The notes beneath the pieces were generated by a model. The model saw nothing but the letters and a program-made list of their open reading frames with translations, had not been told where the DNA came from and did no database searches. Position numbers and translations under genes: made by a program. DNA of 64,000 nucleotides, from positions 28,458,001 to 28,522,000 of the forward strand of contig OZ024752.1 of the NCBI GenBank assembly GCA_964016885.1, in the 5' to 3' direction. Numbering within the stretch: position 1 is the first letter of the stretch; each line of letters begins with the position of its first letter. This DNA is from Eledone cirrhosa (lineage: Eukaryota). This document shows, piece after piece, positions 1 to 45,494 of the stretch.

Positions 1-147
1 ACATACATACATTCATATGTACACACACACATACATACATACATATATACATACATACATACATTCATACATACATACATACATACATACATACATACAT
101 ACATACGTATATACGTACATACATACATACATACATACATACATACA

Positions 148-183
<36 letters not shown>

Positions 184-484
184 CATACATACATTCATAC
201 ATACATACATACATACATACATACATACATACATACATACATACACACACACATACATACATACATATATACATACATACATACATTCATATGTACACAC
301 ACACATACATACATACATATATACATACATACATACATTCATATGTACATACATACATACGTACATACGTACATACGTACATACATACATACATACATAC
401 ATACATACATACATACATACATACATACATACATACATACATACATACATACATACATACATACATACATACATACATACATAC
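1..484. repeat. (ACAT)n microsatellite
   Basis: Direct reading. Confidence 0.98.
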
Positions 485-835
485 ACGTGTATGTTTTTCG
501 TTTACAATCGAATTATTTAGCAATTAACTACGATCTTAGGTTAAAGATGTAGCCATCGTTTCCAATTTTGTTTAACATTCTGGCTAAGAAGATCACAGGC
601 GAGACAGAGATGATAAATAGATCGAAATATGTGCTCGTGTTTTTGTGTAACCTTTTACAATGTATTTTTTATTATTTCAGACGTAATATTGGGGGAAGTT
701 TGTTTTGCATTTCCTTTTGCTATATTTTGCTATATTCTGGCGTTTTTCCCAGAAACATTTCTCTCTAGATAGCCATAAATCCCAATAAAACACACGTAAA
801 CACATAGACAGAAATACACAACCTTAAATAGCTGT

Positions 836-842
836 TTGTGTG

Positions 843-918
<76 letters not shown>

Positions 919-933
919 GTGTGTGTGTATGTG

Positions 934-982
<49 letters not shown>

Positions 983-1139
983 ATAAATATATATATGTAT
1001 ATATATATATAAATATAGAGAGAGAGAGATCATATACATATATACATATATATATATATATACATACATATATACATATACATAGATATACATCCATATA
1101 TATATATATACATACATATATATATACATATATATACAT

Positions 1140-1230
<91 letters not shown>

Positions 1231-1275
1231 TACATATAAATACATATATATATATTTATTTATATATGTGTATGT
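836..1275. repeat. Compound (TA)n/(GT)n microsatellite, representative of dozens of such tracts in the window
   Basis: Direct reading; source of the [12 protein letters not shown] ORFs. Confidence 0.98.
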
Positions 1276-1997
1276 AGATATATAAATGTCAGTGTACGGG
1301 TGTTTGTGATAATGTTTTATATGCGTCTGTATGACAGTCCCCGCCATAAAAAAATCCCACTTTTTATATAATCTAATATTAATATATGAAAGAGATTTTT
1401 TTAGATTAACGATTGCATTTCATTACAAGATTTTTAAAAAGTCTTTGACCTAAAGTGGAGGTCTTAGTCCTTCATTCATAATGGGACATTTCTGTCGGAT
1501 TCAAGTTTGTCGATTTTAGCAAATTATTTTAATAGACAGAACATTTTTTTCAATTACAGAATTTCTCTACTGATGTTTTTGATATTTTTGTTTTTTATAA
1601 ATTTAATTTCACTGCAGAATAGAAATAAATTTAATTGTAAATTTTAATGATTTAGAATTGTTTAATTTTTTTGTTTTTCTTGTGTCACGTAAAGATTTGT
1701 TGTTTTGTTAAATTATACTGTGCTACAATGGTTTGGTCTGCAATAAGATTAAATAAATAAATAAAAAGCCAGCTTGAAGGAAGAATTAAACACATTTAAG
1801 ACAAAATGTCTGGCGCATGTAAAAAAGAAGAAATCACAAAAAACATCCTGGTTAACTATGAGAAAATGGCAAGGACGAAAATTATAATCTTTCTGCAGCT
1901 GTTAATGCGACAATTAATAGTGATTCAACTGTTTTTTAGTCACTGTCTGTGCACCAACATTGACTCTTGAGACCGACATATTTTAACATAGCTCGGC

Positions 1998-2004
1998 TAT
2001 ATAT
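1998..2004 (+). promoter_or_regulatory. Putative TATA box of S-crystallin gene 1
   Basis: TATATAT 127 bp upstream of the ATG; gene 2 has TATATAA 130 bp upstream of its ATG. Confidence 0.55.
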
Positions 2005-2124
2005 TAGGCTACCATCTGGAATCAGCTGTAGTCTTATTTCTGCTCTTACATTGCAAGATAGAATAACTAACCTGTTATCTGCACAATATTAGCAGCAACA
2101 ACAAATCTACTGCAAACATCAACC

Positions 2125-12544
<10,420 letters not shown>

Positions 12545-18192: not shown

Positions 18193-19991
<1,799 letters not shown>

Positions 19992-20152
19992 TTGGTGCTC
20001 TGAAATAGCGATATATATATATATGAATGTATATATAGTGTATTTTGCAATACACTGTATGCTTAATTAAAAGCATTTCGAAGCCCTTACGCTATTGTTT
20101 TAGAGTAGTGACAGTCTCACTTACTTCAATTTTCAGCAAACAGGGGAGATGA

Positions 20153-20197
20153 AGCTGACAGAGCTCTGTTTCACACTTTTTGGTGCTTATCAAAGCT
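20153..20197 (-). ncRNA. Minimal type I hammerhead ribozyme, U3:A8 variant (family B, opposite arm)
   Basis: Exact reverse complement of 20397-20441. Confidence 0.72.
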
Positions 20198-20396
20198 ACC
20201 TACTCCGCCTGTTTGCTGAAAATTGTGAATGTTTGATTCTTATAGAATTCCAGTAATAATCAGGAACTGGTTATACCAATTCTAATTTTCAATTTCTGCT
20301 TGACCGGCAACCGCTCTGTATAATCAGTTCCTGATTATTACTAGAATTCTATAAGAATCAAACATTCACAATTTTCAGCAAACAGGCGGAGTAGGT

Positions 20397-20441
20397 AGCT
20401 TTGATAAGCACCAAAAAGTGTGAAACAGAGCTCTGTCAGCT
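20397..20441 (+). ncRNA. Minimal type I hammerhead ribozyme, U3:A8 variant (family B)
   Basis: agct-TTGATAA-gcac caaaaa gtgt-GAAA-cagagctctg-TC^agct. Confidence 0.72.
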
Positions 20442-20690
20442 TCATCTCCCCTGTTTGCTGAAAATTGAAGTAAGTGAGACTGTCACTACTCTAAAACAAT
20501 AGCGTAAGGGCTTCGAAATGCTTTTAATTAAGCATACAGTTTATTGCAAAATACACTATATATACATTTATATATATATATATCGCTATTTCAGAGCACC
20601 AATTCTAATATATATATATATATATATATACTCTGCTTTGTATTGAGTACCTTACTTACTGTGGCTACTCCCGATTGAACCCGAGATAAA

Positions 20691-21792: not shown

Positions 21793-23895
21793 CCAGGGGG
21801 TGTAACTAGGAGTTACTGCAAGTTCACCAGGGTGAGCACTCGATGTTTAGGTTCACTTCTGTGATGATATGTAGAGCTATACAGAGTGTAAAATATAGAA
21901 AGGATAAAAAGGACGATTGATTATTCCTTCATTGCATTTATTGATAGGTGACGCGCGTTTCGCCACTGATCAGCTCAAGGTTCGATCTATATCGATCCTA
22001 CCCGACTCAATAATCGGCAGCTCGACAGACCGTCTTAAAATGCTATAACAAAACGAAATACATGCTATGTGGTAAAGTCAGATATTCAAGAGTTTGACAA
22101 AATGAGTTGTTTTGATTGGTGGGCAGGATCAAGGCGGTGTACTGGTCTGTAGTGTATATGGGGGTGGGTGTTATGGTGAGATGTTGGTGACGGTCTGTGG
22201 ATGAGGTGGGCTGTGATGTGGTGGTGGTGGTGGTGGGTTGGCCTTGGCGTGTAGAGTATGTGGGGGTGGATGTGATGATATGGTGGTGGTTAAGGTTATT
22301 TAGTGGGATGGGCTGTGGTATGAGGTTAGTGGATTGTCAGTAGACGGGTTGGCATGTGGGTGGAGGTGTGGTAGTGGTGCCGTTGTCTATGGTAGCGGCG
22401 TTTGTGGTGGTGTGGTGGATGTATTGGTGGCGTCAAGGTCCTTACATAGATACATAGTTAGACGCTCTTCGTCTGACAGATACCTTGTTTATACGTATAC
22501 GTACACACATATATGTACATATGTGCACATATATTGTTGTATAAACACACACAACATAAAACACATACGCACATCCTTTCCCACACATATCGGCATACGC
22601 TCACACACAGCCATATGTATATGTACACACATGTATGTGTATGCGCGCATGCGGACACGAATATGGAGAGTGGGGGAAGTATCGGTGGGGGTGGCGAACG
22701 ACAGAGATGGGGGGAAGGTGAGAGGCGATGTAGAATGTGTTTTACATATATATACATACACATGGGTATGGGCACATGGACTCACACTCATGTATGCAAC
22801 ATATACACATACACACTCGCACACACGTATACTCACACATATATATATATATACACATATATATATATATATACACATATATATATATATACACACACAT
22901 GTACCGACAACACACACATACACGCACATATACACATACATGCACATACATGAGCTCACCTACACATACAGTCAGATTTACCCATATACATATATGTAGA
23001 CGTACACATACACACACATACATACACATACATATATACACACACATACACATATGCATACACATACACATATATATATACACAGATATATATATACACA
23101 CACATAGACATATGCATACACATGTGTATGCATACACTGTGTATGCATATGTCTATGTGTGTGTATATATATATCTGTGTATATATATATGTGTATGTGT
23201 ATGCATATGTGTATGTGTGTGTATATATGTATGTGTATGTATGTGTGTGTATGTGTACGTCTACATATATGTATATGGGTAAATCTGACTGTATGTGTAG
23301 GTGAGCTCATGTATGTGCATGTATGTGTATATGTACGTGTATGTGTGTGTTGTCGGTACATGTGTGTGTATATATATATATATATGTGTGAGTATACGTG
23401 TGTGCGAGTGTGTATGTGTATATGTTGCATACATGAGTATGAGTCCATGTGCCCATACCCATGTGTATGTATGTGTATGTATATATATGTAAAACACCTT
23501 CTACATCGCCTCTCACCTTCCCCCCATCTCTGTCGTTCGCCACCCCCACCGATACTCCCCCACCACCACCACATCACAGCCCACCTCATCCACAGTTCGT
23601 CACCAACATCTCACCATAATACCCACCCCCATATACACTACAGACCAGTACACCGCCTTGATCCTGCCCACCAATCAAAACAACTCATTTTGTCAAACTC
23701 TTGAATATCTGACTTTATCACATAGCATGTATTTCGTTTTCTTATAGCATTTTAAGACGGTCTGTCGAGCTGCCGATTATTGAGTCGGGTAGGATCGATA
23801 TAGATCGAACCTTGAGCTGATCAGTGGCGAAACGCGCGTCACCTATCAATAAATGCAATGAAGGAATAATCAATCGTCCTTTTTATCCTTTCTAT
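21793..23895. repeat. About 2-kb foldback element (centre near 23126) between (TA)n tracts, hammerhead-like motif in each arm
   Basis: 21895-22230 pairs with 23565-23895; 22678-23125 pairs with 23128-23560. Confidence 0.88.
23759..23843 (+). ncRNA. Hammerhead-like motif with an A6-to-U core change; mirror copy on the minus strand at 21947-22031
   Basis: ggt-CTGTCGA-gctgc...gtggc-GAAA-cgcgcg-TC^acc, followed by AATAAA. Confidence 0.55.
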
Positions 23896-24015
<120 letters not shown>

Positions 24016-24910: not shown

Positions 24911-26021
24911 CAATATATAAACAGTTTTATAAATAATTTTGACGTACCCTATTAGATGCGACCATTATTTTTGGAAGCTGTCTGAATACTGAGATGTTTA
25001 TAATTATTTTATTAGTTATAGTGTTAAGCACAGTTATAAAAAGACGGAGAGAATATATATATATATATATTCTCATACAGTCAATAATTTAATTAACTCT
25101 GAATTATTAAAATACCCAGCAAATTAGAGTGTACACTTATACGTTAATCTGTAAAGAAAAAACGATTTTGTGTTGGTGGGAGACTGGAGTTTCCCAATCC
25201 AGGGATAGATATTCATATACATATAAATACACACACACACACACACACATTTCTTCTCCCCATTTTTTCACATATATTTACCTAAACTGCGATTCTGGTT
25301 TTTTTCTCTCTCTCTCTCTTACTGCTCCCTCGCTCTCTCTGTTTCTCCTACTTTCTTTCGCCCCCTCTGTCATGTCAGTTAACTCTTCCTCACACTTCCA
25401 CTCACTCACTCACTGTTTCTCCTCTTCTCACTTCTTCCCGTTCGCGACGAAATCATTTTCTCTCTTTCTCACATTTGAATTCGCTCCTGAAAGGTCTTTT
25501 TTCTAAGCGCTCATATATTCACCTAGCTTATGCTAACAGAATAACTATGAAGCTTGTTCCCTTCCTTCTACGGTTAGCTATCCTCTTTGTTGTTATCTTG
25601 TTTCACTCGCTTTACGCGTTTTAATTGTCCTAATAATTTAATTTAGTTATTATTGCACCGACGTGAGGTATATGATTTTTAATGCAATGAAATATCTATG
25701 ATCGTCGGCAAATCACTGATGAGGGACTTATTTTATTACATGTTAGCCATGTGCAACCAGCAGTATTCTTCTCCCCATTTTTTCACATATATATATATAT
25801 ATATATATATATTGGTTAGAGAACTGGATTCGCTATCGTGAGGTGATCAGTTCGATCCTGTACCAGGCGATGCGTTATGTCTTTGAGCAAGACACATTAT
25901 TTCACGTTGCTCCTTCTAGTTGGAGTTGCGACTGATAAATAGTATTAGCAATTGGAAGACCAACGGAAACAACTTCCAACAACATCTCTAGTTCTTTTCA
26001 ACGAAAGTCGATCGACTGTTA

Positions 26022-26080
<59 letters not shown>

Positions 26081-26222: not shown

Positions 26223-26281
<59 letters not shown>

Positions 26282-26483
26282 TTTACGTATCTCGATACGT
26301 AGAAAAAAAGGGCGGATAGGTGATACATATAGTTATTTGCCAAGTAGCGTATGCCAAAGGTGCTCGATACTAGTGCCGGCAGTATTAAATATTCGAAGTG
26401 TTAATATTTAGTGGGCTAGAGAGTTAGCAGAACGTAAGCACGTGGGAAAGTAAAAAATCGGAGAATAGACCGTTAAAACATGT

Positions 26484-26543
26484 TTATTTAAAATATCATC
26501 TACGTACGTTTCGCCCAGTTGGGCTTCTCAAGGGCATAAATAA
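26484..26543 (-). ncRNA. Hammerhead-like motif (U3:A8) in the 3' pseudo-LTR of the Penelope-like element
   Basis: TTGAGAA-gccc aact gggc-GAAA-cgtacg-TA^; proximal stem I is weak. Confidence 0.5.
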
Positions 26544-26834
26544 TCACAAGTGTTCCTTATATTGCTCGGAAAGAGTTTTTGGGGTTAAATCCACATCAAG
26601 GTTCATTGCTCGCAAAAATATCTTGTTTTGATTTTGCAGCAGGTCAAGGGAGGTAACTCTGGCCGGTGTTAGGGCAGTCTTTCCCGGACAAATTTTTTTT
26701 TTTTTTTTTTTTTTTGCCGCATCCGTTTGTCTGAGGCTGGGTCTGGTATGCAAGGATTGTTTCCTGGGTGTTATTTTGCAGCGCCTGCCCGCCGGGGTGT
26801 TAAGACTTGTTGCAGGGAGATCCAGTGTACTATT

Positions 26835-28570
26835 TCACTCTTCATCCTTAACCCATCTGAAGAAGGATATTTTTAAGCGATGTGTACAACTTATCGCTGT
26901 TTCAGCTCTGCTGTTGATGAGCTCGTGGGGTGCAGTTATGATGTGGTAGAGCTCCATGAGGCAAAGATCGCATTTCCTCTTGAAGTTGTACGGTGCAGCC
27001 CTGCCGACAATCTCCCAGTGCGTGGAGAAGCTGATGTTTAAGTCCTTTAGTGATGTGATGTAGTCCGCGAACGAGGTGGAGTGCCTTAGTTTTCTATTTG
27101 TGAAAGAGTGGAGATGTGTTCGAAACCTAATTTTGAACGGGCCGGAGGTGGCCCCTATATAATGTTTAACGCTATTGTGGCTAGTAATAGTGCATCTATA
27201 TATAACCCTATCAGTCAAGCAGTATCCTCTAAGGGGGCAGCGTCCTCTGTCGCGGCAGTTGCAATTTCTGTCGCGGTTCCGTCTATTTCCCACGGTAAGG
27301 CTATCATTGTTGCTGCCTACGTTGTTACCTACGCTACCGCAGCTGCCGTTAGCACAATTACAACCCACAGAACGCGGGGTGGTGCGATTGTTATTCCGCA
27401 CGTCATGTTCTGCATGTTCCCCAGTCATTTCGCGGTTATTCTGGTTGCGTCTGCGGATGCCGTTGCCAACACTATTGGATGCTGCCAGGGAGTTGTTAAG
27501 GCCGATATAGTTATTGTCAGGTGTAGGTGCGTCTGTGTCGAGGTGCTGTGTCTTGGTGATCTTACTGTGGTTCGTTGTTCCTATGATGTCTGCTAGGTTA
27601 GGAGTAGTAGAGAAGGATATTTTTATATTGTTCCTATTAAGAATTTTTCTATACCTATGGTTGGGCGGGAAGTTCTTCTCTAAGGCTTCGAAGAACATCC
27701 GGGGTATGTTGGAGGCCACACTCCGAGAGTAGGGTGGGTGGGGGTGGGTGGAACCATAGGACGTTACGGTGGCGATTACGTGTCCTTGTACTTTTGCTAC
27801 GGGTGGTTCCATCTAAGTGTGGTTCCGCTCTTATGTGTGTTAATGCGCAGTCTCCCGTTCGGTGCCCCTTTCACTTTATGCTCGGGTGCACTCTTTCTAC
27901 CTCTTCCAAGTTTATGTACACGAAGATGTTGGTTGGAAGGCGTTGGTAGTAGGCCGTCGCCTTTGTTGGTTTTGTAATAGGGGAATAGTTTGAGTAATCT
28001 ACAGTGTTCACCGTCGCCGGGGGTGTGATCTTTGGTACGGTTATCTATTCTATTATATCCGACTTCAACGAGGTCGCCGCGTGATCGGTTATATGTATGG
28101 CTTACTATAACGTTAGTTTTATGAGGGGGGTGGTTTCTAGAGCTAGTGTTAGGGATGTAGGAAATTCCTCGGTTAAAGCCGGCGCTTATCAGGGCCCTAT
28201 TGTAGTAATCAGCCGCTTGGTTGAAGATATCCTCATTGGCGGATAGCCTCGAGATTCTATGTGAGATACTATAGACTATGGAGTTGAGAGTCTGCTTAGG
28301 GTGGTTGGAGGCATAATTAATATAAGAGAGGCACTCTCCAGGCTTATGGTATGGCTTGTATAAGCCCGTACTCAACTCCAGGGTCACGTCCAGGAAGTTG
28401 ACAACCCTGTGGTTGAGGTCCATAGTTACGGATAGGCCGTATGACTTAAAGAACCTGTGTATATGTTTGTTAAGGTTCTCTATCCTACGGGGGCTATGGT
28501 TCCTAACGGTAAACAGGGTGTCGTCCCTATATACACCTCCTTGTAGGGCCGGTATTTCTTACCTAAGCTT
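26835..28570 (-). pseudogene. Disrupted PLE RT/endonuclease ORF
   Basis: ORFs 27797-28423 and 26835-27812 overlap in different frames; the N-terminal RT motifs are missing. Confidence 0.88.
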
Positions 28571-28791
28571 ATTCTATGTGTGTGTGTGTTTTCATTGAAA
28601 ACACACACACACATAGAACAAACAACCAACCAACAACATGTAAATAAATAAACAAATAGATAAATGAACACAAACACACACAGACACCCGGATGTGGCGC
28701 ATGCGCAAACTGAGCACACAACACACACACAGAAATAAAATGGCGTAGGACAGAAGAAAGGAAAGGCACAGAAACAAAGAAAGGAATCCCC

Positions 28792-28836
28792 AGTCACTGA
28801 AGAGGTCACAGAGTGTGTGACGAAAGGACTATGACT
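28792..28836 (+). ncRNA. Minimal hammerhead ribozyme motif (family A)
   Basis: agtca-CTGAAGA-g-gtcaca gagtg tgtgac-GAAA-ggac-TA^tgact. Confidence 0.65.
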
Positions 28837-28994
28837 ATATATAAACAACTATCTGGTTGTGGAACCAACCAACCAACCAGAAATTTATAAATTTGTAGAT
28901 TTGTAAATTTATAAATTTATAAATATATAATAAATTGAAGTGAAGGCAACTGGTGCGTGTGTTTCTTATTGGCAACATGACCCTCCCAAAGTAT

Positions 28995-29089
<95 letters not shown>

Positions 29090-29692
29090 ACAGTCGATCG
29101 ACTTTCGTTGAAAAGTACTAGAGATGTTGTTGTTTGCCCCAGTTTGTCAATACTGCAGCAAATTAGAGGAAATTACGTTTCATTTTTAAATATTCCTATC
29201 GTGTTTACGGACGTATATCGAAATAGAATATCTAATTGTCCTTATTTAAAACGTTATGCTGTGATACGAAACTGGTTTCTCTACTGCTTGTTTATTAAAT
29301 TTAGCCATTATGCTGAGGCGTCTCTTCTTGGCTATATTTCTTTCCAGGTATAGTAAGTATATCTGGAAGATTTATGTCTGGAAATATATGGTATAAAAAT
29401 ATAAAAAATATATATCTAAAAGAATGATTCAGTTCAATGAATTGGTTAGTTTTTAAAAATTGCCCACAGAGATTTGTATTCATATATGTGAATTATTTAT
29501 AAGTTATTGTTTAACTGTATATCCTGGGTCTAAGGTATATAGCGTGACGAACGTTAAGTTGTAAGGAGGAAACTTTGCCAATATCAGAATTAATAGACAG
29601 AGCCCCTGGCAATGATATATCTAGGAGCGAAGTGCTTATATAGGGAGAGCCAGGTAGTTTATAGCTTTTATAATTGGACATATAGAAGTGAG

Positions 29693-29752
<60 letters not shown>

Positions 29753-29869
29753 CAGATTAAAGTTTAAGCAAAGAATCGCTACTTTCACCCTTAACGGATC
29801 TTCTGAAACTAAAAAGTCAAACTGTGAACGCAGAAGTAAATATTTCAAAAGACGTTGCAACCGAAGGAA

Positions 29870-30170
29870 GACAGGAAGATGATACTTTGGTTCGTGGAAA
29901 CGTTCCCTGGCAAAGAACGGGAAAAAAACGAAGATAATACGTCATTATTAGGTGCGGTGAAAACAATTACACGCAAAGACAAAACCACGTTTATGGTATA
30001 AATGAAGTCGTAGACTAATATTCTATTAGGTGGTTCATAGAGACGTTCTCTGGCAATGAACGGAAAAAACGAAGATGATACGTCATTATGTGGGGCGGAG
30101 AACAATTACACAGAAAGACAAAACCACGTAAATGGTATAACTGAAGTCGTAGACTAAAATTCTATTTAGG
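29870..30170. repeat. About 2.3 diverged tandem copies of a roughly 140-bp unit
   Basis: Repeated GAAGATGATACGTCATTAT...ACAATTACAC...AAAACCACGT..ATGGTATA...GAAGTCGTAGACTAA. Confidence 0.75.
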
Positions 30171-30837
30171 AAACCGAGTGATTCTCGGCTTCAGAGTTAA
30201 GAATAAAGTAAATAAAATACAGAGGTAATTGAAATTAAATATATACATGCACGCATCCGTATACGTACATACACAAGCATACGCGAAAACACTCATCATG
30301 GGTATGCAAATACAAGCACGTACACTAAAAAACACGCACGCACATACAGAACCCACGCAACGCCTGGACCCGCACACATACGAACGTATACACCAAATAC
30401 ACATAAAAATATATATAAAAATATATATAAATATGCGTGTGTGTGTGCGTGTATACACATAATTAAATAAACGTATATAAATATACACACATAAATATGT
30501 ATATAACGCGCGCACACGCATACCTACATGTAAATACACATATGCTTGCAGGCGTACGTCAACCAAAAGACAACGTACACATATACACACACCCTACATA
30601 CATACGAACCCGCATACTCACACACGCAAACTCACGTATACACATAACCAAGTGCACATGTACCAGCATATATAATATACGCCATAACATGAACAAGCAA
30701 ATATACCTACGAGAAAGTATACGTACCTTCACAAAACATACAGGTAATATATACTTACCTATACAGATAACTAATGGTATAAACATAAGATATAGTTAAC
30801 TACCACATCAAGGCGTAAAATATCCGCATTATTACTA

Positions 30838-31025
30838 TGGTGGGTTGGCAGTATCGGTGGAGGGTCGGACGCCATGCTTTCCAGCATAGTTACGTCCCTT
30901 TACGATCTGAGTTCAAATCCCGCCGAGGTTGACTTTGCCTTTCATCCTTACGGGGTCGATAAAATAAAGTACCAGTAATGCACTGGGTAATTGCTGGCCT
31001 TGTGCCTAAAGTAGAAACAATTATT
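30838..31025 (+). mobile_element. SINE subfamily 1 copy
   Basis: Same boxes, core and tail. Confidence 0.87.
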
Positions 31026-31031
31026 ACTATA

Positions 31032-31074
<43 letters not shown>

Positions 31075-31226
31075 ATAGATTTCGAGTATATGTTGGTTGT
31101 ATACCAACACCTCAGTGTGCAGGCTGGAGCACTCGACGAAGTGCGCAGGTTGGTTTGATTACTCCGGAGTAATGTAAAATAAAGTAAAATAAAAAGTCAA
31201 ATGTTTAAAATTTAGCTTCGTTTATT

Positions 31227-31281
31227 ACTGCTATATATATTTCGGTGACAGCCATCTTTGGCTGTGACCTCTTCAGGCAGT
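31227..31281 (-). ncRNA. Minimal type I hammerhead ribozyme (mirror copy)
   Basis: Exact reverse complement of 31656-31710. Confidence 0.82.
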
Positions 31282-31655
31282 CCGAATTAGTGTGGTATAG
31301 ACAAGTACATATGTTGTTGAGGTGTATAATAACAACACTACCAACACAATAACAACAATAACAACACTACCAACACAAGAATTGAGGTCAGATGTACCTA
31401 ACAATAACAAGAACAACAACTACAGATTGGCTTGCCTCAGAACGAACTTCTATAGACTTTTGAATGAGGAATGTTCTAACAACTGACCAATGAGAGGAGA
31501 AGAGGCACTGTGACACTGAAATTCGTTTGTTTGAATTCATATGATTCCAGTTCCTCTGTGAAATAACAACTCAACCAGGAACTGGGCATATCAGAGTATT
31601 GACAAAATTATACACCTCAACAACATATGTACTTGTCTATACCACACTAATTCGG

Positions 31656-31710
31656 ACTGCCTGAAGAGGTCACAGCCAAAGATGGCTGTCACCGAAATAT
31701 ATATAGCAGT
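31656..31710 (+). ncRNA. Minimal type I hammerhead ribozyme
   Basis: actgc-CTGAAGA-ggt c acagcca aaga tggctgt c acc-GAAA-tatata-TA^gcagt, then AATAAA. Confidence 0.82.
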
Positions 31711-31755
31711 AATAAACGAAGCTAAATTGTAAACATTTGACTTTTTACTTTACTT

Positions 31756-31824
<69 letters not shown>

Positions 31825-34362: not shown

Positions 34363-34426
<64 letters not shown>

Positions 34427-34645
34427 CGTTTCTGAATTTGTTTAGCAAGATTCTTTATCTGAAATCGTGTGTTGAAACCGATATTGTTATACTTTGGGAG
34501 GGTCATGTTGCCAATAAGAAACACACGCACTAGTTGCTTTCACTTCAATTTATTATAATAAATTTATAAATTTAGGAATTTATAAATTTATAAATTTCTG
34601 GTTGGTTGGTTGGTTGGTTCCACAACCAGATAGTTGTTTATATAT

Positions 34646-34690
34646 TGTCAAAGTTCTTTCGTCACACATTCTGTGACCTCTTCAGTGACT
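34646..34690 (-). ncRNA. Minimal hammerhead ribozyme motif (family A)
   Basis: Reverse complement of the 35242-35286 motif. Confidence 0.6.
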
Positions 34691-35241
34691 GGGGATTCTT
34701 TTCTTTGTTTTTGTGCCTCTCCTTTGTTCTGTCCTACGCCATTTTGTTTCTGTGTGTTGTGTGCTCAGTCTGCGCATGCGCCACATCCGGGTCTCTGTGT
34801 GTGTTTATATTCGTTTATTTATTTGTTTATTTACATGTTACCGGTTGGTTGTTTGTTCTGTGTGCGTGTGTGTTTTCATTTTGTCCTTAATTGTAAGTTG
34901 TAATGTTGCTGTTCCACTCATATTTTCTATTTAATTTTGGTTGTAATTCTTTTGATTATTGCCTCAATAAACATAAAAGAATTACAACCAAAATTAAATA
35001 GAAAATATGAGTGGAACAGCAACATCACAACTTACAATTAAGGACAAAATGAAAACACACACGCACATAGAACAAACAACCAACCGGTAACATGTAAATA
35101 AACAAATAAATAAACGAATATAAACACACACAGACACTCGGATGTGGCGCATGCGCAGACTGAGCACACAACACACACACAGAAACAAAATGGCGTAGGA
35201 CAGAACAAAGGAGAGGCACAAAAACAAAGAAAAGAATCCCC

Positions 35242-35286
35242 AGTCACTGAAGAGGTCACAGAATGTGTGACGAAAGAACTTTGACA
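35242..35286 (+). ncRNA. Minimal hammerhead ribozyme motif (family A)
   Basis: gtca-CTGAAGA-g-gtcaca gaatg tgtgac-GAAA-gaac-TT^tgac. Confidence 0.6.
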
Positions 35287-35439
35287 ATATATAAACAACT
35301 ATCTGGTTGTGGAACCAACCAACCAACCAGAAATTTATAAATTTATAAATTCCTAAATTTATAAATTTATTATAATAAATTGAAGTGAAAGCAACTGGTG
35401 CGTGTGTTTCTTATTGGCAACATGACCCTCCCAAAGTAT

Positions 35440-35489
<50 letters not shown>

Positions 35490-38052: not shown

Positions 38053-40524
38053 TAGTACTAATGAGCGCCCATTCCAAGCGTGCCCATGGAGGATAGAGCG
38101 TACCCCGCCATCAGGTACCCTCTATCATCCACCCCCGAGGCCAGCGCCAAGCGTTTGCGTGACCAGTTAAACGCCAAGCATATCATGGGTGGGTGATGTC
38201 TCGGCCGCAGTCAGAGTTGTTGCCTCAGAGGACACTGTCCTCCAACCCACCGAGGAGGTCCTGGCTGCTCTGCGACTCAAACACCCTGAGCCACCCACTG
38301 ACCTCAGACCCATACCCCCACCCGACCTCCACTTGCTCCTTGTGGTTTCTGATGCAGACATTATGTCCGCCATCAGGTCCTTCCCAGCTAGAAGCTGCGG
38401 AGGTGTTGATGGTCTCCGACCAGGCCACCTCAAGGAGTTGATATCCCCCCTCTCCGCTGATGCCCGGCGCCGCCTTCTAAGTGGAATTGCGGCGCTGACC
38501 AATAGGCTCATCCATGGCGCCCTGGACCCTTACGCCCGAGGCCTCTTTTTTTCGGCCAGCCTCACCACTCTCAGGAAGAAAGAGGGTGGCATACGCCCCA
38601 TCGCTGTGGGCGATGTCTTCTGGAGGCTGGCTGCCAAGGTGATCTGCAAGTCCGTAACACATGAACTGGGTGAGGAGTTTAGTCCGGTGCAACTGGGTGT
38701 CCGGTGGCTGTGAGGGGGCCGCCCATGCAACCAGGCAGTTCTTCAACAGCTGCCCATCGGAACCGGCATCCAGGGACTCCAGGCACCTCATTGTCAAGCT
38801 TGACATTGTCAAGCTTGCCTTCAACTCTTTACACCGGGATCATCTGCTCGAGGCCTGCCTCAGCCGAGCCCCCCTCTGCCTACCCGCTGGCCTACCTGTC
38901 GTATGGAGCCCCGAGCAAGCTCCTTGATGCTGGTACGGTCTCACCCTCGACTACTGGGGTCCAACAGGGCGAACATTTGGGACCCCTCCTGTTCGCCATT
39001 GGTATTGACCACATCGCCCGGAGTATCACGGCCCCTCTCAGCGTTTGGTATCTGGATGATGCTACGTTGGGCGGGCCCGTACGGGCGGTCTGCCATGATC
39101 TTCAATCGGTGGTTCTTGCCCTGGCGGGAATCGCCCTCCAGGTCAACTCGGCCAAGTCGGAGGCGGTGAATGTCAGCCTCGATGCTGTGAGCTTTGCAGC
39201 GTCCGTCTTGGACGTGCGGTCCATCTCCGCCAAGTTAAGGTGACCCCCCCCCACCCCCCCAAGAGGTTGTCCTCATCCTCGGGTCACCGATCCACCCGCC
39301 GGCCATCCGCTCCACCATCAGGTCCAGGCTTCAACAGCTCCAGACTCTCACGAGCCGACTGGGCTTGATTGACGGCTACCCAGCTCTCTTTCTGCTGAGG
39401 AACTGCTTCGCCATGCCGAAGCTCCTCTATACACTCCGCAGCGCTCCGTGTTACACCCAGACATCTCTCCTCGCTGACCTCGATACTTGTATCCGAGCAG
39501 TAGCTGAGGAGATATGCAACGTCAAGTTTGACGACATAGGGTGGCAACAGGTCAGGTATGGCGGCCTTGGCCTCCGGTCCCCGATCTCACTAGATTTGCC
39601 GGCGTATCTTTCGTCGGTAAACTCGTGCCACGTCCTCGTCAGCAAGGTTCTTCAAAACACAACAGAACCCTCTGTGTCCAGAGAACGTGAGGCCGCCTGT
39701 GAGACGTGGGACCGGTTGGGACTTATCCCAGTAGCCGTCTATCCTCCTTCTCCCCCTATTGACGTCAAGTACCCCCAACGCACTTGGGATGCCATCCAGT
39801 GCAGCCTGGCCTCAGACACGCTCACGCGCCAGTTGGACCAGCACTGCTCTGCTTGTTTTCGTGCGGCCTCCAAACCCCACAGTGGTGCCTGGCTCCATGC
39901 CCTGGCCTCCTTTTTCACTGGCACGCAGCTAGACAACCATAACCTGCGCATCGGCGTTTCCCTGAGGCTCGGCATCCAGATCTGCCAGCCACATCGCTTT
40001 CCTGTCGCCACAGTGGCGATCGCATTTCACGCCATGCTTCCCTCAACGAAGTCATTAAGCATGGCTTGGACACTGCAGCCTTCCCTTCCCAGCTCGAGCC
40101 GGTGGGGCTGGATCGAGGGGACGGCAAAAGGCCAGATGGCATGACCATCTTCCCGTTCCGCGGTGACAACCCTCTCGTCTGGGATGCCACTTGCACCGAC
40201 ACGTTCTGCAGCCGCAACCTGGTGCAGTCTGCGATTGATCCAGGTTCTGCTGCACGTCGGGCTGAGGGGGCCAAACTCCTCAAATACCGGTCGCTCTCCG
40301 ACAGGTTTGCGGTCGTACCCCTGGCAGTGGAGAGTTCTGGTGTCCTCGGCCCCACAGCTACCTCCTTACTCACCACCATAGGCGCTGAGCTGGCCAGCCG
40401 CAGGTGTGAGGCCCGCGAGTTGGAGTGGCTTTTCCAGCGCGTCTCCCTTGCCGTCCTCCTGGGAAACGCCTTCTCCATTCTGTCCGCCAGGGATGTGGGT
40501 GGGCCCCATCGCGTACCGTTGTAG
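38053..40524 (+). mobile_element. Degenerate CRE-clade non-LTR retrotransposon (RT plus restriction-like endonuclease), frameshifted and 5'-truncated
   Basis: Motifs across frames: GGIRPIAVGD, QLGV..GGCEGAAHA, KL.FNSLHR, GVQQGEHLGPLLF, WYLDD, GGLGLRS, HSGAWL, RPDGMT..WDATCTDT, K..KY, PLAVESSGVLG; visibly much more GC-rich than the flanks. Confidence 0.9.
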
Positions 40525-40754
40525 TTATTGTAGAAGAAACAGGAAGACAACAATTTCAATGAATTGCTGGTGTGTTTGGTTGTTCATACATCCACGCACA
40601 CACACCACTACGTAAGTATATACATTGTTAACGAATACTGATTTATATATATATAAACTCTTCCTTTCCTCTTGCTTTCTTTTCTTTCCTTCCCTATATA
40701 TATACACATAGTGTAGGTGGTTCAGTGAAATACTGGTGTTAGTACCAAAGAAAG

Positions 40755-41020: not shown

Positions 41021-41193
41021 GTATAATAAAGCCAAAACAGTGCAGGTATGGACATAGAATAAAGAATGCAAATGCAAAAGATATTGTTGACAATTAGTCT
41101 TTACCTTAGATTTATTTAAATGTGTCACACACAGAAACAAAATGGCGTAGGATAGAAGAAAGAAAAGGCACAGAAACGAAGAAAGGAATCCCC

Positions 41194-41238
41194 AGTCACT
41201 GAAGAGGTCACAGAGTGTGTGACGAAAGGACTATGACT
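41194..41238 (+). ncRNA. Minimal hammerhead ribozyme motif (family A)
   Basis: Identical to 28792-28836. Confidence 0.65.
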
Positions 41239-41398
41239 ATATATATAAACAACTATCTGGTTGTGGAACCAACCAACCAACCAGAAATTTATAAGTTTGT
41301 AGATTTGTAAATTTATAAATTTATAAATATATAATAAATTGAAGTGAAAGCAACTGGTGCGTGTGTTTCTTATTGGCAACATGACCCTCCCAAAGTAT

Positions 41399-41495
<97 letters not shown>

Positions 41496-44304: not shown

Positions 44305-44358
<54 letters not shown>

Positions 44359-44450
44359 AACGAGTAGGACCCCGACGGCTGAGTTCAAGCCGTTTCGACG
44401 GCTAATTCTGGACTAAATGGTCCACCTGGTTCCTTACCACATTTCCTCCG

Positions 44451-44497
<47 letters not shown>

Positions 44498-45094: not shown

Positions 45095-45281
45095 GTGTGT
45101 GTGTATGTATATTGTATATGAATATATATATATATATTGTTATACTTTGGGAGGGTCATGTTGCCAATAAGAAACACACGCACCAGTTGCTTTCACTTCA
45201 ATTTATTATAATAAATTTATAATAAATTTATAAATTTCTGGTTGGTTGGTTGGTTCCACAACCAGATAGTTGTTTATATAT

Positions 45282-45326
45282 TGTCATAGTTCTTTCGTCA
45301 CACACTCTGTGACCTCTTCAGTGACT
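45282..45326 (-). ncRNA. Minimal hammerhead ribozyme motif (family A)
   Basis: gtca-CTGAAGA-g-gtcaca gagtg tgtgac-GAAA-gaac-TA^tgac. Confidence 0.62.
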
Positions 45327-45494
45327 GGGGATTCCTTTCTTTGTTTCTGTGCCTCTCCTTTGTTCTGTCCTACGCCATGTTGTATATATATATTTATTTA
45401 TATATGTATGTATATTGTATATATATATATATATATATAATTATATATATATATATGTATGTATGTATATTGTATATATATATTTATATATATA

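What the first reader, a model, noticed from the sequence alone, without database searches (positions are those of the whole stretch)
26280..29000. Chimeric insertion linking a coding Penelope-like element to a non-coding family A element through a micro-foldback
Seen: the minus-strand PLE ORF breaks off about 40 nt upstream of YRDD (near 28571). It abuts a perfect 23-bp palindrome (28572-28594 and 28596-28618) that is the folded-back 5' end of a plus-strand family A copy. The composite is bounded by (TA)n on both sides. The PLE's own 3' tail (26280-26830, TTGAGAA hammerhead) does not resemble family A. Established: PLE insertions often show inverted 5' junctions from template switching. Inference: one RT event jumped between two different RNAs, which would be direct evidence that family A is mobilised in trans by PLE machinery.
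Basis: partly seen in the sequence, partly recalled or inferred. Interest (0 to 1): 0.72.

Follow-up and report, generated by a model that had tools for sequence, protein, structure and literature searches.

The report
Two Penelope families joined head-to-head
What looked like a jumping gene fused to a non-coding passenger is the tail ends of two different protein-coding Penelope-type jumping genes joined back to back, likely because each was copied into one side of the same DNA break at the same time.

Summary
The junction is in the assembly as described and occurs once in the genome. But 'family A' is not a non-coding passenger. It is the 3' UTR/pseudo-LTR of a second autonomous PLE (Neptune-type, over 25,000 3' ends), cut 8 nt behind its stop codon. 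The partner is Hydra-type. The pieces face opposite ways and each ends at its own family's usual start site, so an RNA-to-RNA jump or trans-mobilisation is not supported. Same-family inverted insertions pair one tailed with one tail-less end (67 of 67; the scan noted this two-start pattern before on other DNA). The chimera fits that rule. Cross-family joins recur (12 of 154 loci). Their arms look age-matched (rho 0.74, n=12; weaker without query-biased arms), yet obey the end rule only at chance (7 of 13). Best reading (0.52): two ribonucleoproteins primed opposite ends of one (TA)n break, and their cDNAs were joined by snap-back repair. Sequential insertion plus deletion stays close (0.36). 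No spanning reads or empty site could be seen. Known for L1; not found described for PLEs.

The parts
26227..26278 (.). left (TA)n target tract
26279..28571 (-). PLE1: 5'-truncated Hydra-type Penelope-like element (part of RT, thumb, linker, GIY-YIG, 3' UTR/pLTR, tail); this copy is broken by an early stop and a frameshift
26279..26439 (-). PLE1 'tail' (about 160 nt): the copy ends at the family's long (tailed) end
26490..26545 (-). PLE1 hammerhead-like motif with variant core UUGAGAA; cleavage untested
   Evidence: no Rfam hammerhead hit
28520..28531 (-). YRDD codons of the PLE1 RT
28572..28594 (-). 23-bp fold-back copy of the first 23 nt of the PLE2 arm; joined to PLE1 with 1 nt of possible microhomology
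28596..28998 (+). 'family A' = 3' UTR/pLTR of PLE2 (Neptune-type), starting 8 nt after the ORF stop and ending at the family's short (tail-less) end
28792..28836 (+). PLE2 minimal hammerhead motif (CUGAAGA...GAAA); predicted cut after about 28831 from recalled consensus; untested
28999..29088 (.). right (TA)n target tract
25977..26024 (+). 44-48 bp of flank (end of a SINE-like copy) that is duplicated in inverted orientation on the right side
29085..29132 (-). inverted duplicate of 25977-26024; a 22-mer of it occurs only at these two places in the genome
26078..26226 (.). older fragment of another (TA)n-associated repeat family (best other copies 94%) between two TA tracts

Best explanation
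The composite is two 5'-truncated arms of two different coding Penelope-like elements joined at their 5' ends inside a (TA)n tract, and it likely formed in one event in which each element's own enzyme primed its own RNA on one end of the broken tract (twin priming with two RNAs). Shown: identity, orientation and end type of both arms, and the junction anatomy. Inferred: the PLE2 cDNA stalled just behind the stop codon, snapped back on itself for 23 nt, and was joined to the PLE1 cDNA by microhomology-type repair. Inferred: two independent ribonucleoproteins acted, not one RT in trans, because each arm ends at its own family's start site and cross-family joins as a class do not keep the tailed/tail-less pairing.
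For: (a) 76 of 154 sampled loci are same-family head-to-head insertions. Both ends could be typed in 67, and all 67 pair a tailed with a tail-less end. The tailed arm can be much shorter than the other (L063: 218 nt against 3.9 kb), so arms are separate cDNAs, not a simple fold-back. The window chimera has the same tailed plus tail-less layout. (b) Its junction (1-nt overlap, short templated piece) resembles same-family junctions: 49 of 76 overlap by 1-14 nt, and 9 of 76 have templated inserts. L068 folds back within 4 nt of the same PLE2 site. L193 repeats the architecture, micro-foldback included, with two other families. (c) Private substitutions are similar in the two arms: 14 of 2268 and 1 of 403, Fisher p 0.71. 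(d) Across directly joined cross-family PLE-type pairs, arm ages correlate: rho 0.74, 12 of 18 pairs with enough sites, side-free permutation p 0.012-0.016. Same-family arms give 0.71 (n=102). TA-separated neighbours give -0.10 (n=41), and PLE-to-LINE/SINE joins -0.07 (9 of 10). (e) The PAc enzyme nicks and extends both strands and has two start sites bounding the tail (PMC11167929, main text). L1 makes opposite-orientation two-RNA chimeras (PMC13174262 passages; 10.1101/2024.08.27.596794 section 9).
Against: Cross-family joins keep the end pairing in only 7 of 13 typed cases (5 of 18 not typed), against 67 of 67 (Fisher p 6e-6), so the window's fit is a coin toss. The age correlation weakens without the three pairs whose arms I had used as search queries: n=9, rho 0.67, side-free p 0.16. 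Poorly sampled families inflate private rates, and I chose the pairs by eye. The window's own age test has little power. Same-family arms usually come from one template (closer than the median other copy in 37 of 38 PLE1 and 14 of 19 PLE2 pairs), so two-RNA events are exceptions. 27 of 154 anchors join non-TA DNA at their 5' end, so target deletions may be common. The 23 bp can also be read as the stump of an older PLE2 inverted arm.
Confidence: 0.52

Rival explanations
1. Sequential insertion plus deletion. Either an older symmetrical PLE2 inverted insertion lost all but 23 bp of one arm when PLE1 arrived or when the palindrome broke, or one element inserted in the TA tract at the other's 5' end and the intervening TA was deleted.
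For: End pairing among cross-family joins is at chance, 7 of 13. Three-part cases (L150, L156, L129, L216) look like same-family inverted pairs with one arm replaced. PLE 5' ends also abut LINE and SINE copies with no age match. PLE2 is very dense: 25,840 exact 3' motifs. Both families target the same tracts.
Against: Age correlation is seen in cross-family PLE pairs but not in TA-separated neighbours. No TA remnant lies at this junction, whereas 49 of the 76 anchors with neither a same-family inverted arm nor a PLE1/PLE2-type partner keep TA within 20 nt of their 5' end. The arms of the window chimera are similarly young.
Confidence: 0.36
2. The composite is a rearrangement bridge: two synchronous insertions at nearby or distant TA tracts swapped partners, or a local micro-inversion accompanied the event, as described for L1.
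For: 44-48 bp of flank is duplicated in inverted orientation around the region and nowhere else. None of 115 same-family insertions had a comparable unique duplication; the 4 hits read as neighbouring repeats. Partner swapping would give age-matched arms with random end pairing, as seen. L1 precedent: 10.1101/2024.08.27.596794 section 9.
Against: The inverted flank copy may be an older fold-back around the TA tract. Of the other 15 cross-family joins checked, 3 had flank hits, all reading as repeats. No reciprocal junction was looked for.
Confidence: 0.06
3. One reading: one RT jumped from one RNA to the other, and family A is a non-coding element moved in trans by the PLE1 enzyme.
For: There is no TA at the junction, and the composite has one TA boundary on each side.
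Against: Family A is the pLTR of an intact coding PLE. The arms are in opposite orientation (PMC13174262: template switching gives same orientation). Family A's end is the one its own family uses. PLE2 is about 20 times more numerous than PLE1 by exact motif count (25,840 against 1,295).
Confidence: 0.03
4. Assembly or library artefact (chimeric read).
For: No record spanned the junction.
Against: That run output shows records cut at the adjacent repeat, so the test could not work. The fold-back is only 23 bp. Similar joins occur at other loci. Both arms carry private substitutions and end at biological start sites.
Confidence: 0.03

Closest known systems
EN+ PLE insertions with an inverted 5'-truncated copy and a one-sided tail (PMC8557442, passages and section 11; PMC3846280, passages and Discussion)
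   Same: Head-to-head arms, (TA)n target, tail on one end only, palindrome at the inverted junction.
   Different: There the inverted arm is of the same family, and PMC3846280 explains it by self-priming. Here the arms come from two clades whose proteins do not align, which self-priming cannot produce.
L1 twin-priming chimeras with a second RNA (PMC13174262, passages) and bridges of two L1s joined 5' to 5' (10.1101/2024.08.27.596794, abstract and section 9)
   Same: Two different RNAs in opposite orientation, joined at truncated 5' ends in one site.
   Different: Different retroelement class. No poly(A) and no readable target-site duplication here. Both partners are autonomous and probably used their own enzymes. 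In L1 the single event is supported by TSDs or tumour/normal data; here it is inferred.
Poseidon_Ac (PAc) in vitro mechanism (PMC11167929, main text read)
   Same: Two RT start sites bounding the tail; both strands nicked and extended; AT-rich target.
   Different: Different clade; the tails here are 60 nt (PLE2) and about 160 nt (PLE1); two-RNA products were not examined there.
Animal non-LTR retrozymes (10.64898/2026.07.22.740005, abstract only)
   Same: Family A in isolation looks like one: short, hammerhead motif, very high copy.
   Different: Family A is contiguous with a coding ORF in 37 of 38 relatives, so it is a truncated autonomous PLE, not a retrozyme.

Membership tests
Hydra-clade PLE (PLE1) | RWK and DKT motifs, no GxKF/Y | tested here: met
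   RWK at 55, DKT at 137, no [GP]xK[FY] in the 927-aa L005 frame; criteria from PMC8557442 section 11
Hydra-clade PLE (PLE1) | CxCX5C linker, C-terminal GIY-YIG, CxxC and CxH motifs | tested here: met
   CxCX5C at 786, YIGAT at 820, CxxC at 883, CxH at 911
Hydra-clade PLE (PLE1) | canonical hammerhead in the pLTR | tested here: inconclusive
   core reads UUGAGAA in 170 of the 174 matches in the eight commonest patterns (overlapping loci not removed); no Rfam hammerhead hit; cleavage untested
Hydra-clade PLE (PLE1) | placement in the RT phylogeny | not tested
   no reference PLE set fetched; Pfam gave no hit
Neptune-type PLE (PLE2 = family A) | single ORF with RT and C-terminal GIY-YIG, flanked by direct pLTRs | tested here: met
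   L072: 1167-aa frame, YVDD at 792, YIGET at 1080, family A on both sides
Neptune-type PLE (PLE2 = family A) | CX2-5CxxC linker before the endonuclease; (TA)n targeting | tested here: met
   CX4CxxC at 1041; ends abut TA. The linker is shared with Nematis (PMC8557442), so the clade label is tentative
Neptune-type PLE (PLE2 = family A) | placement in the RT phylogeny | not tested
   no tree built
non-LTR retrozyme (family A) | non-coding unit with no linked ORF | tested here: not met
   37 of 38 closest copies extend into the ORF
RT template-switch chimera | both RNAs in the same orientation | tested here: not met
   arms are head-to-head; only the 23-bp stub lies in line with PLE1
twin-priming chimera | opposite orientation, joined at 5' ends, each 3' end at a priming site | tested here: met
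twin-priming chimera | single event shown by one target-site duplication or an empty allele | not testable with these tools
   a TSD cannot be read in (TA)n; no relatives are held for this genome; reads inconclusive

The most novel reading that the evidence does not exclude
Cross-family PLE bridges are a recurrent product (about 8% of sampled loci) of two ribonucleoproteins from different PLE clades priming the two ends of one (TA)n break at once. This would show that the inverted arm of PLE insertions is an independent first-strand cDNA rather than a self-primed fold-back. It would also give PLE clades a route to exchange parts, and some bridges may mark germline inversions.
Probability: 0.45. 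Interest if true: 0.6.

Novelty: new variant of a known kind. Interest (0 to 1): 0.38.

Why it matters
How PLE tandem and inverted structures form is named as an open question in PMC8557442, and PMC3846280 proposed self-priming. Arms from two non-alignable clades, together with the strict tailed/tail-less pairing in same-family insertions, favour two separate primings on the two break ends. They give a direct in vitro test: two RNAs, two proteins, one TA target.

Tried and rejected
Family A as a non-coding or retrozyme family: rejected. Family A as the pLTR of PLE1: rejected; PLE1 has its own pLTR in tandem copies. A spreading composite element: rejected; the junction 19-mer is unique. Read support: 4 runs laid on the junction stretch, none spanning, records cut at the adjacent repeat, so no verdict; no RNA holder listed. 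Pfam found nothing in either PLE protein. Rfam found no hammerhead, only sub-threshold hairpin matches to the palindrome. The MFE fold of the PLE2 motif is no better than shuffles (z -0.74); the PLE1 motif gave z -2.2. End pairing as a one-event test for cross-family joins: no discrimination, 7 of 13. First-pass 'ends' of partner families P3 and W were internal microsatellites and were re-typed. In one search the L074 arm was scored against a second fetch of itself; I used the value. L215 could not be oriented and was dropped (79 of 80 positional loci; 20 of the 100 listed motif places were not fetched as separate anchors, mostly second arms of pairs). Empty-site comparison: no relatives held. 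Paper searches for a PLE cross-family or twin-priming report listed none; the library lacks most subscription papers, and no supplements were read. PMC13282606 (passages) added nothing on this.

Full report
Observation. The window is G000:C12:28458001-28522000 in a 3.0-Gb animal genome. The sequence features hold. A perfect 23-bp inverted pair lies at 28572-28594 and 28596-28618. A minus-strand PLE (PLE1, 26279-28571) breaks 40 nt before YRDD. (TA)n bounds both sides. All 29 other PLE1 copies fetched continue in PLE1 sequence across the break, and none has family A nearby. The junction 19-mer occurs once in the genome, so this is a single locus, not a spreading composite. Contigs and reads of 4 runs did not span the junction, but records were cut at the adjacent repeat, so this says nothing.

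What family A is. Genomic relatives of family A run upstream into an ORF with YVDD and a GIY-YIG endonuclease. L072 holds a 1167-aa frame with family A on both sides as direct pseudo-LTRs, and the stop codon lies 8 nt before the base matching 28596. Of the 38 closest relatives, 37 extend into the ORF. Family A is therefore the 3' UTR/pLTR of a second autonomous element, PLE2, with 25,840 exact copies of a 3' 24-mer; PLE1 has 1,295 copies of its hammerhead 25-mer. By the motif criteria of PMC8557442 (passages and section 11), PLE1 is Hydra-type (RWK, DKT, CxCX5C, CxxC, CxH) and PLE2 Neptune-type (CX4CxxC linker). No tree was built. The two proteins do not align. The claim of trans-mobilisation of a non-coding RNA thus loses its basis.

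How these families insert. I classified the 5' side of 154 anchors: 38 PLE2 best hits, 37 PLE1 best hits, and 79 PLE1 taken by position on C1. 76 had a same-family inverted arm, 49 met (TA)n directly, 27 met other DNA, and 2 met PLE2 or a relative. Each family has two fixed 3' ends, with and without a tail (60 nt in PLE2, about 160 nt in PLE1). Both ends could be typed in 67 of the 76 inverted insertions, and all 67 pair one tailed with one tail-less end. Arms are often very unequal, and the tailed arm can be the short one, so they are separate cDNAs. They usually share a template: arm-to-arm distance is below the median distance to other copies in 37 of 38 PLE1 and 14 of 19 PLE2 pairs. Junctions overlap by 1-14 nt in 49 of 76 and carry templated inserts in 9 of 76. 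This matches the two start sites and two-strand priming of PAc in vitro (PMC11167929, main text) and the one-sided tail in PMC8557442. Earlier scan notes reached the same two-start picture on other DNA; I had the count before looking.

The chimera. PLE1 ends at its tailed end and PLE2 at its tail-less end, each exactly where its own family ends. The arms face away from each other. On the minus strand the sequence reads PLE2 antisense, 23 nt of PLE2 sense, then PLE1 sense, with 1 nt of possible microhomology. An RNA-to-RNA jump gives same-orientation products; opposite orientation indicates twin priming (PMC13174262, passages). L068 folds back within 4 nt of the same PLE2 position, so the fold-back is ordinary junction chemistry. 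Private substitutions are 14 of 2268 in the PLE1 arm and 1 of 403 in the PLE2 arm (p 0.71, low power).

Is it a class? By my reading, 12 of the 154 anchors join another PLE-type family with no TA between (95% interval 4-13%). One of 116 PLE1 anchors (L130) joins PLE2 itself. L193 repeats the window's architecture, micro-foldback included. Partner families P3, W, V and P4 have ORF matches. The others are called PLE-type only from hammerhead-like motifs and paired TA ends, and may be non-coding. Two tests point different ways. End pairing: 7 of 13 typed cross-family joins are complementary (5 of 18 untyped), which is chance and unlike 67 of 67 (p 6e-6). Age: arm divergences correlate in cross-family PLE pairs (rho 0.74, 12 of 18 with at least 100 scored sites per arm, side-free p 0.012-0.016), as in same-family arms (0.71, n=102). 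They do not correlate in TA-separated neighbours (-0.10, n=41) or PLE-to-LINE/SINE joins (-0.07, 9 of 10). Without the three pairs whose arms were my search queries the result is weaker (n=9, rho 0.67, side-free p 0.16). The controls used the terminal 250 nt and the test pairs whole arms. Age-matched arms with uncoordinated ends are what two independent ribonucleoproteins acting at once would leave. Sequential insertion with deletion explains the random ends as well, and the age match less well. For this locus it has a neat version: an older PLE2 palindrome cut back to a 23-bp stump.

An extra clue. 44-48 bp of left flank (25977-26024) recurs inverted at 29085-29132, and a 22-mer of it is found only at these two places. 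None of 115 same-family insertions showed a comparable unique duplication. The site has seen another templated repair or a micro-inversion; its timing relative to the chimera is unknown. Synchronous L1 insertions make such bridges at inversions (10.1101/2024.08.27.596794, abstract and section 9).

Verdict. The best reading is two-RNA twin priming by two PLE machineries (0.52). The mechanism is known for L1. Five paper searches listed no report of cross-clade PLE bridges, within a library that lacks most subscription papers. PMC3846280 (Discussion) favours self-priming for the inverted junction, which a two-clade join cannot be. The scan has noted a comparable PLE/hammerhead-unit chimera elsewhere, with the same unresolved rival (e1-9518051, not checked here). 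This is a new variant of a known kind, interest 0.38.

Noticed in passing
window 25977-26024 and 29085-29132: A unique flank stretch is duplicated in inverted orientation around the whole TA/insert cluster: an old fold-back, templated repair or micro-inversion.
   Followed up: partly
window 34425-35443: Same-family inverted PLE2 insertion of a second subfamily (92% to the 28596 copy): tailed left arm, tail-less right arm, 21-nt loop. Further PLE2 3' ends at 41126-41402 and 45126-45381.
   Followed up: yes
window 29748-31032: Another direct head-to-head join with no TA between: a PLE-type family (short end) and a SINE-like 3' end.
   Followed up: partly
window 26525-26531 (minus): The PLE1 hammerhead core reads UUGAGAA family-wide instead of CUGANGA. 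This could be a compensatory swap of the C3-G8 pair (recalled; PMC11167929 tests C3G/G8C). Activity untested.
   Followed up: partly
window 26285-26315: Five clustered differences in the PLE1 tail turn an imperfect hairpin into a longer palindrome, like a local template switch.
   Followed up: no
window 38167-40583: Frameshifted non-LTR retrotransposon remnant with a weak RVT_1 match.
   Followed up: no
window 18294-19886, 19964-20630, 21893-23897, 31172-31765, 44358-44452: More inverted repeats (the last read), probably two-armed insertions of other families; the 31172 and 44358 ones carry hammerhead-like motifs.
   Followed up: partly
L150, L156, L216, L129: Three-part cross-family composites: one family's inverted pair with one arm's 3' part replaced by another family.
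   Followed up: partly
L072 ORF and window 27250-27520: Both PLE proteins carry asparagine-rich low-complexity stretches, as described for rotifer Penelope elements (PMC3846280).
   Followed up: no
L125:oriented 3-3098: A 1032-aa open frame of an unrelated non-LTR retrotransposon beside a PLE1 insertion.
   Followed up: no
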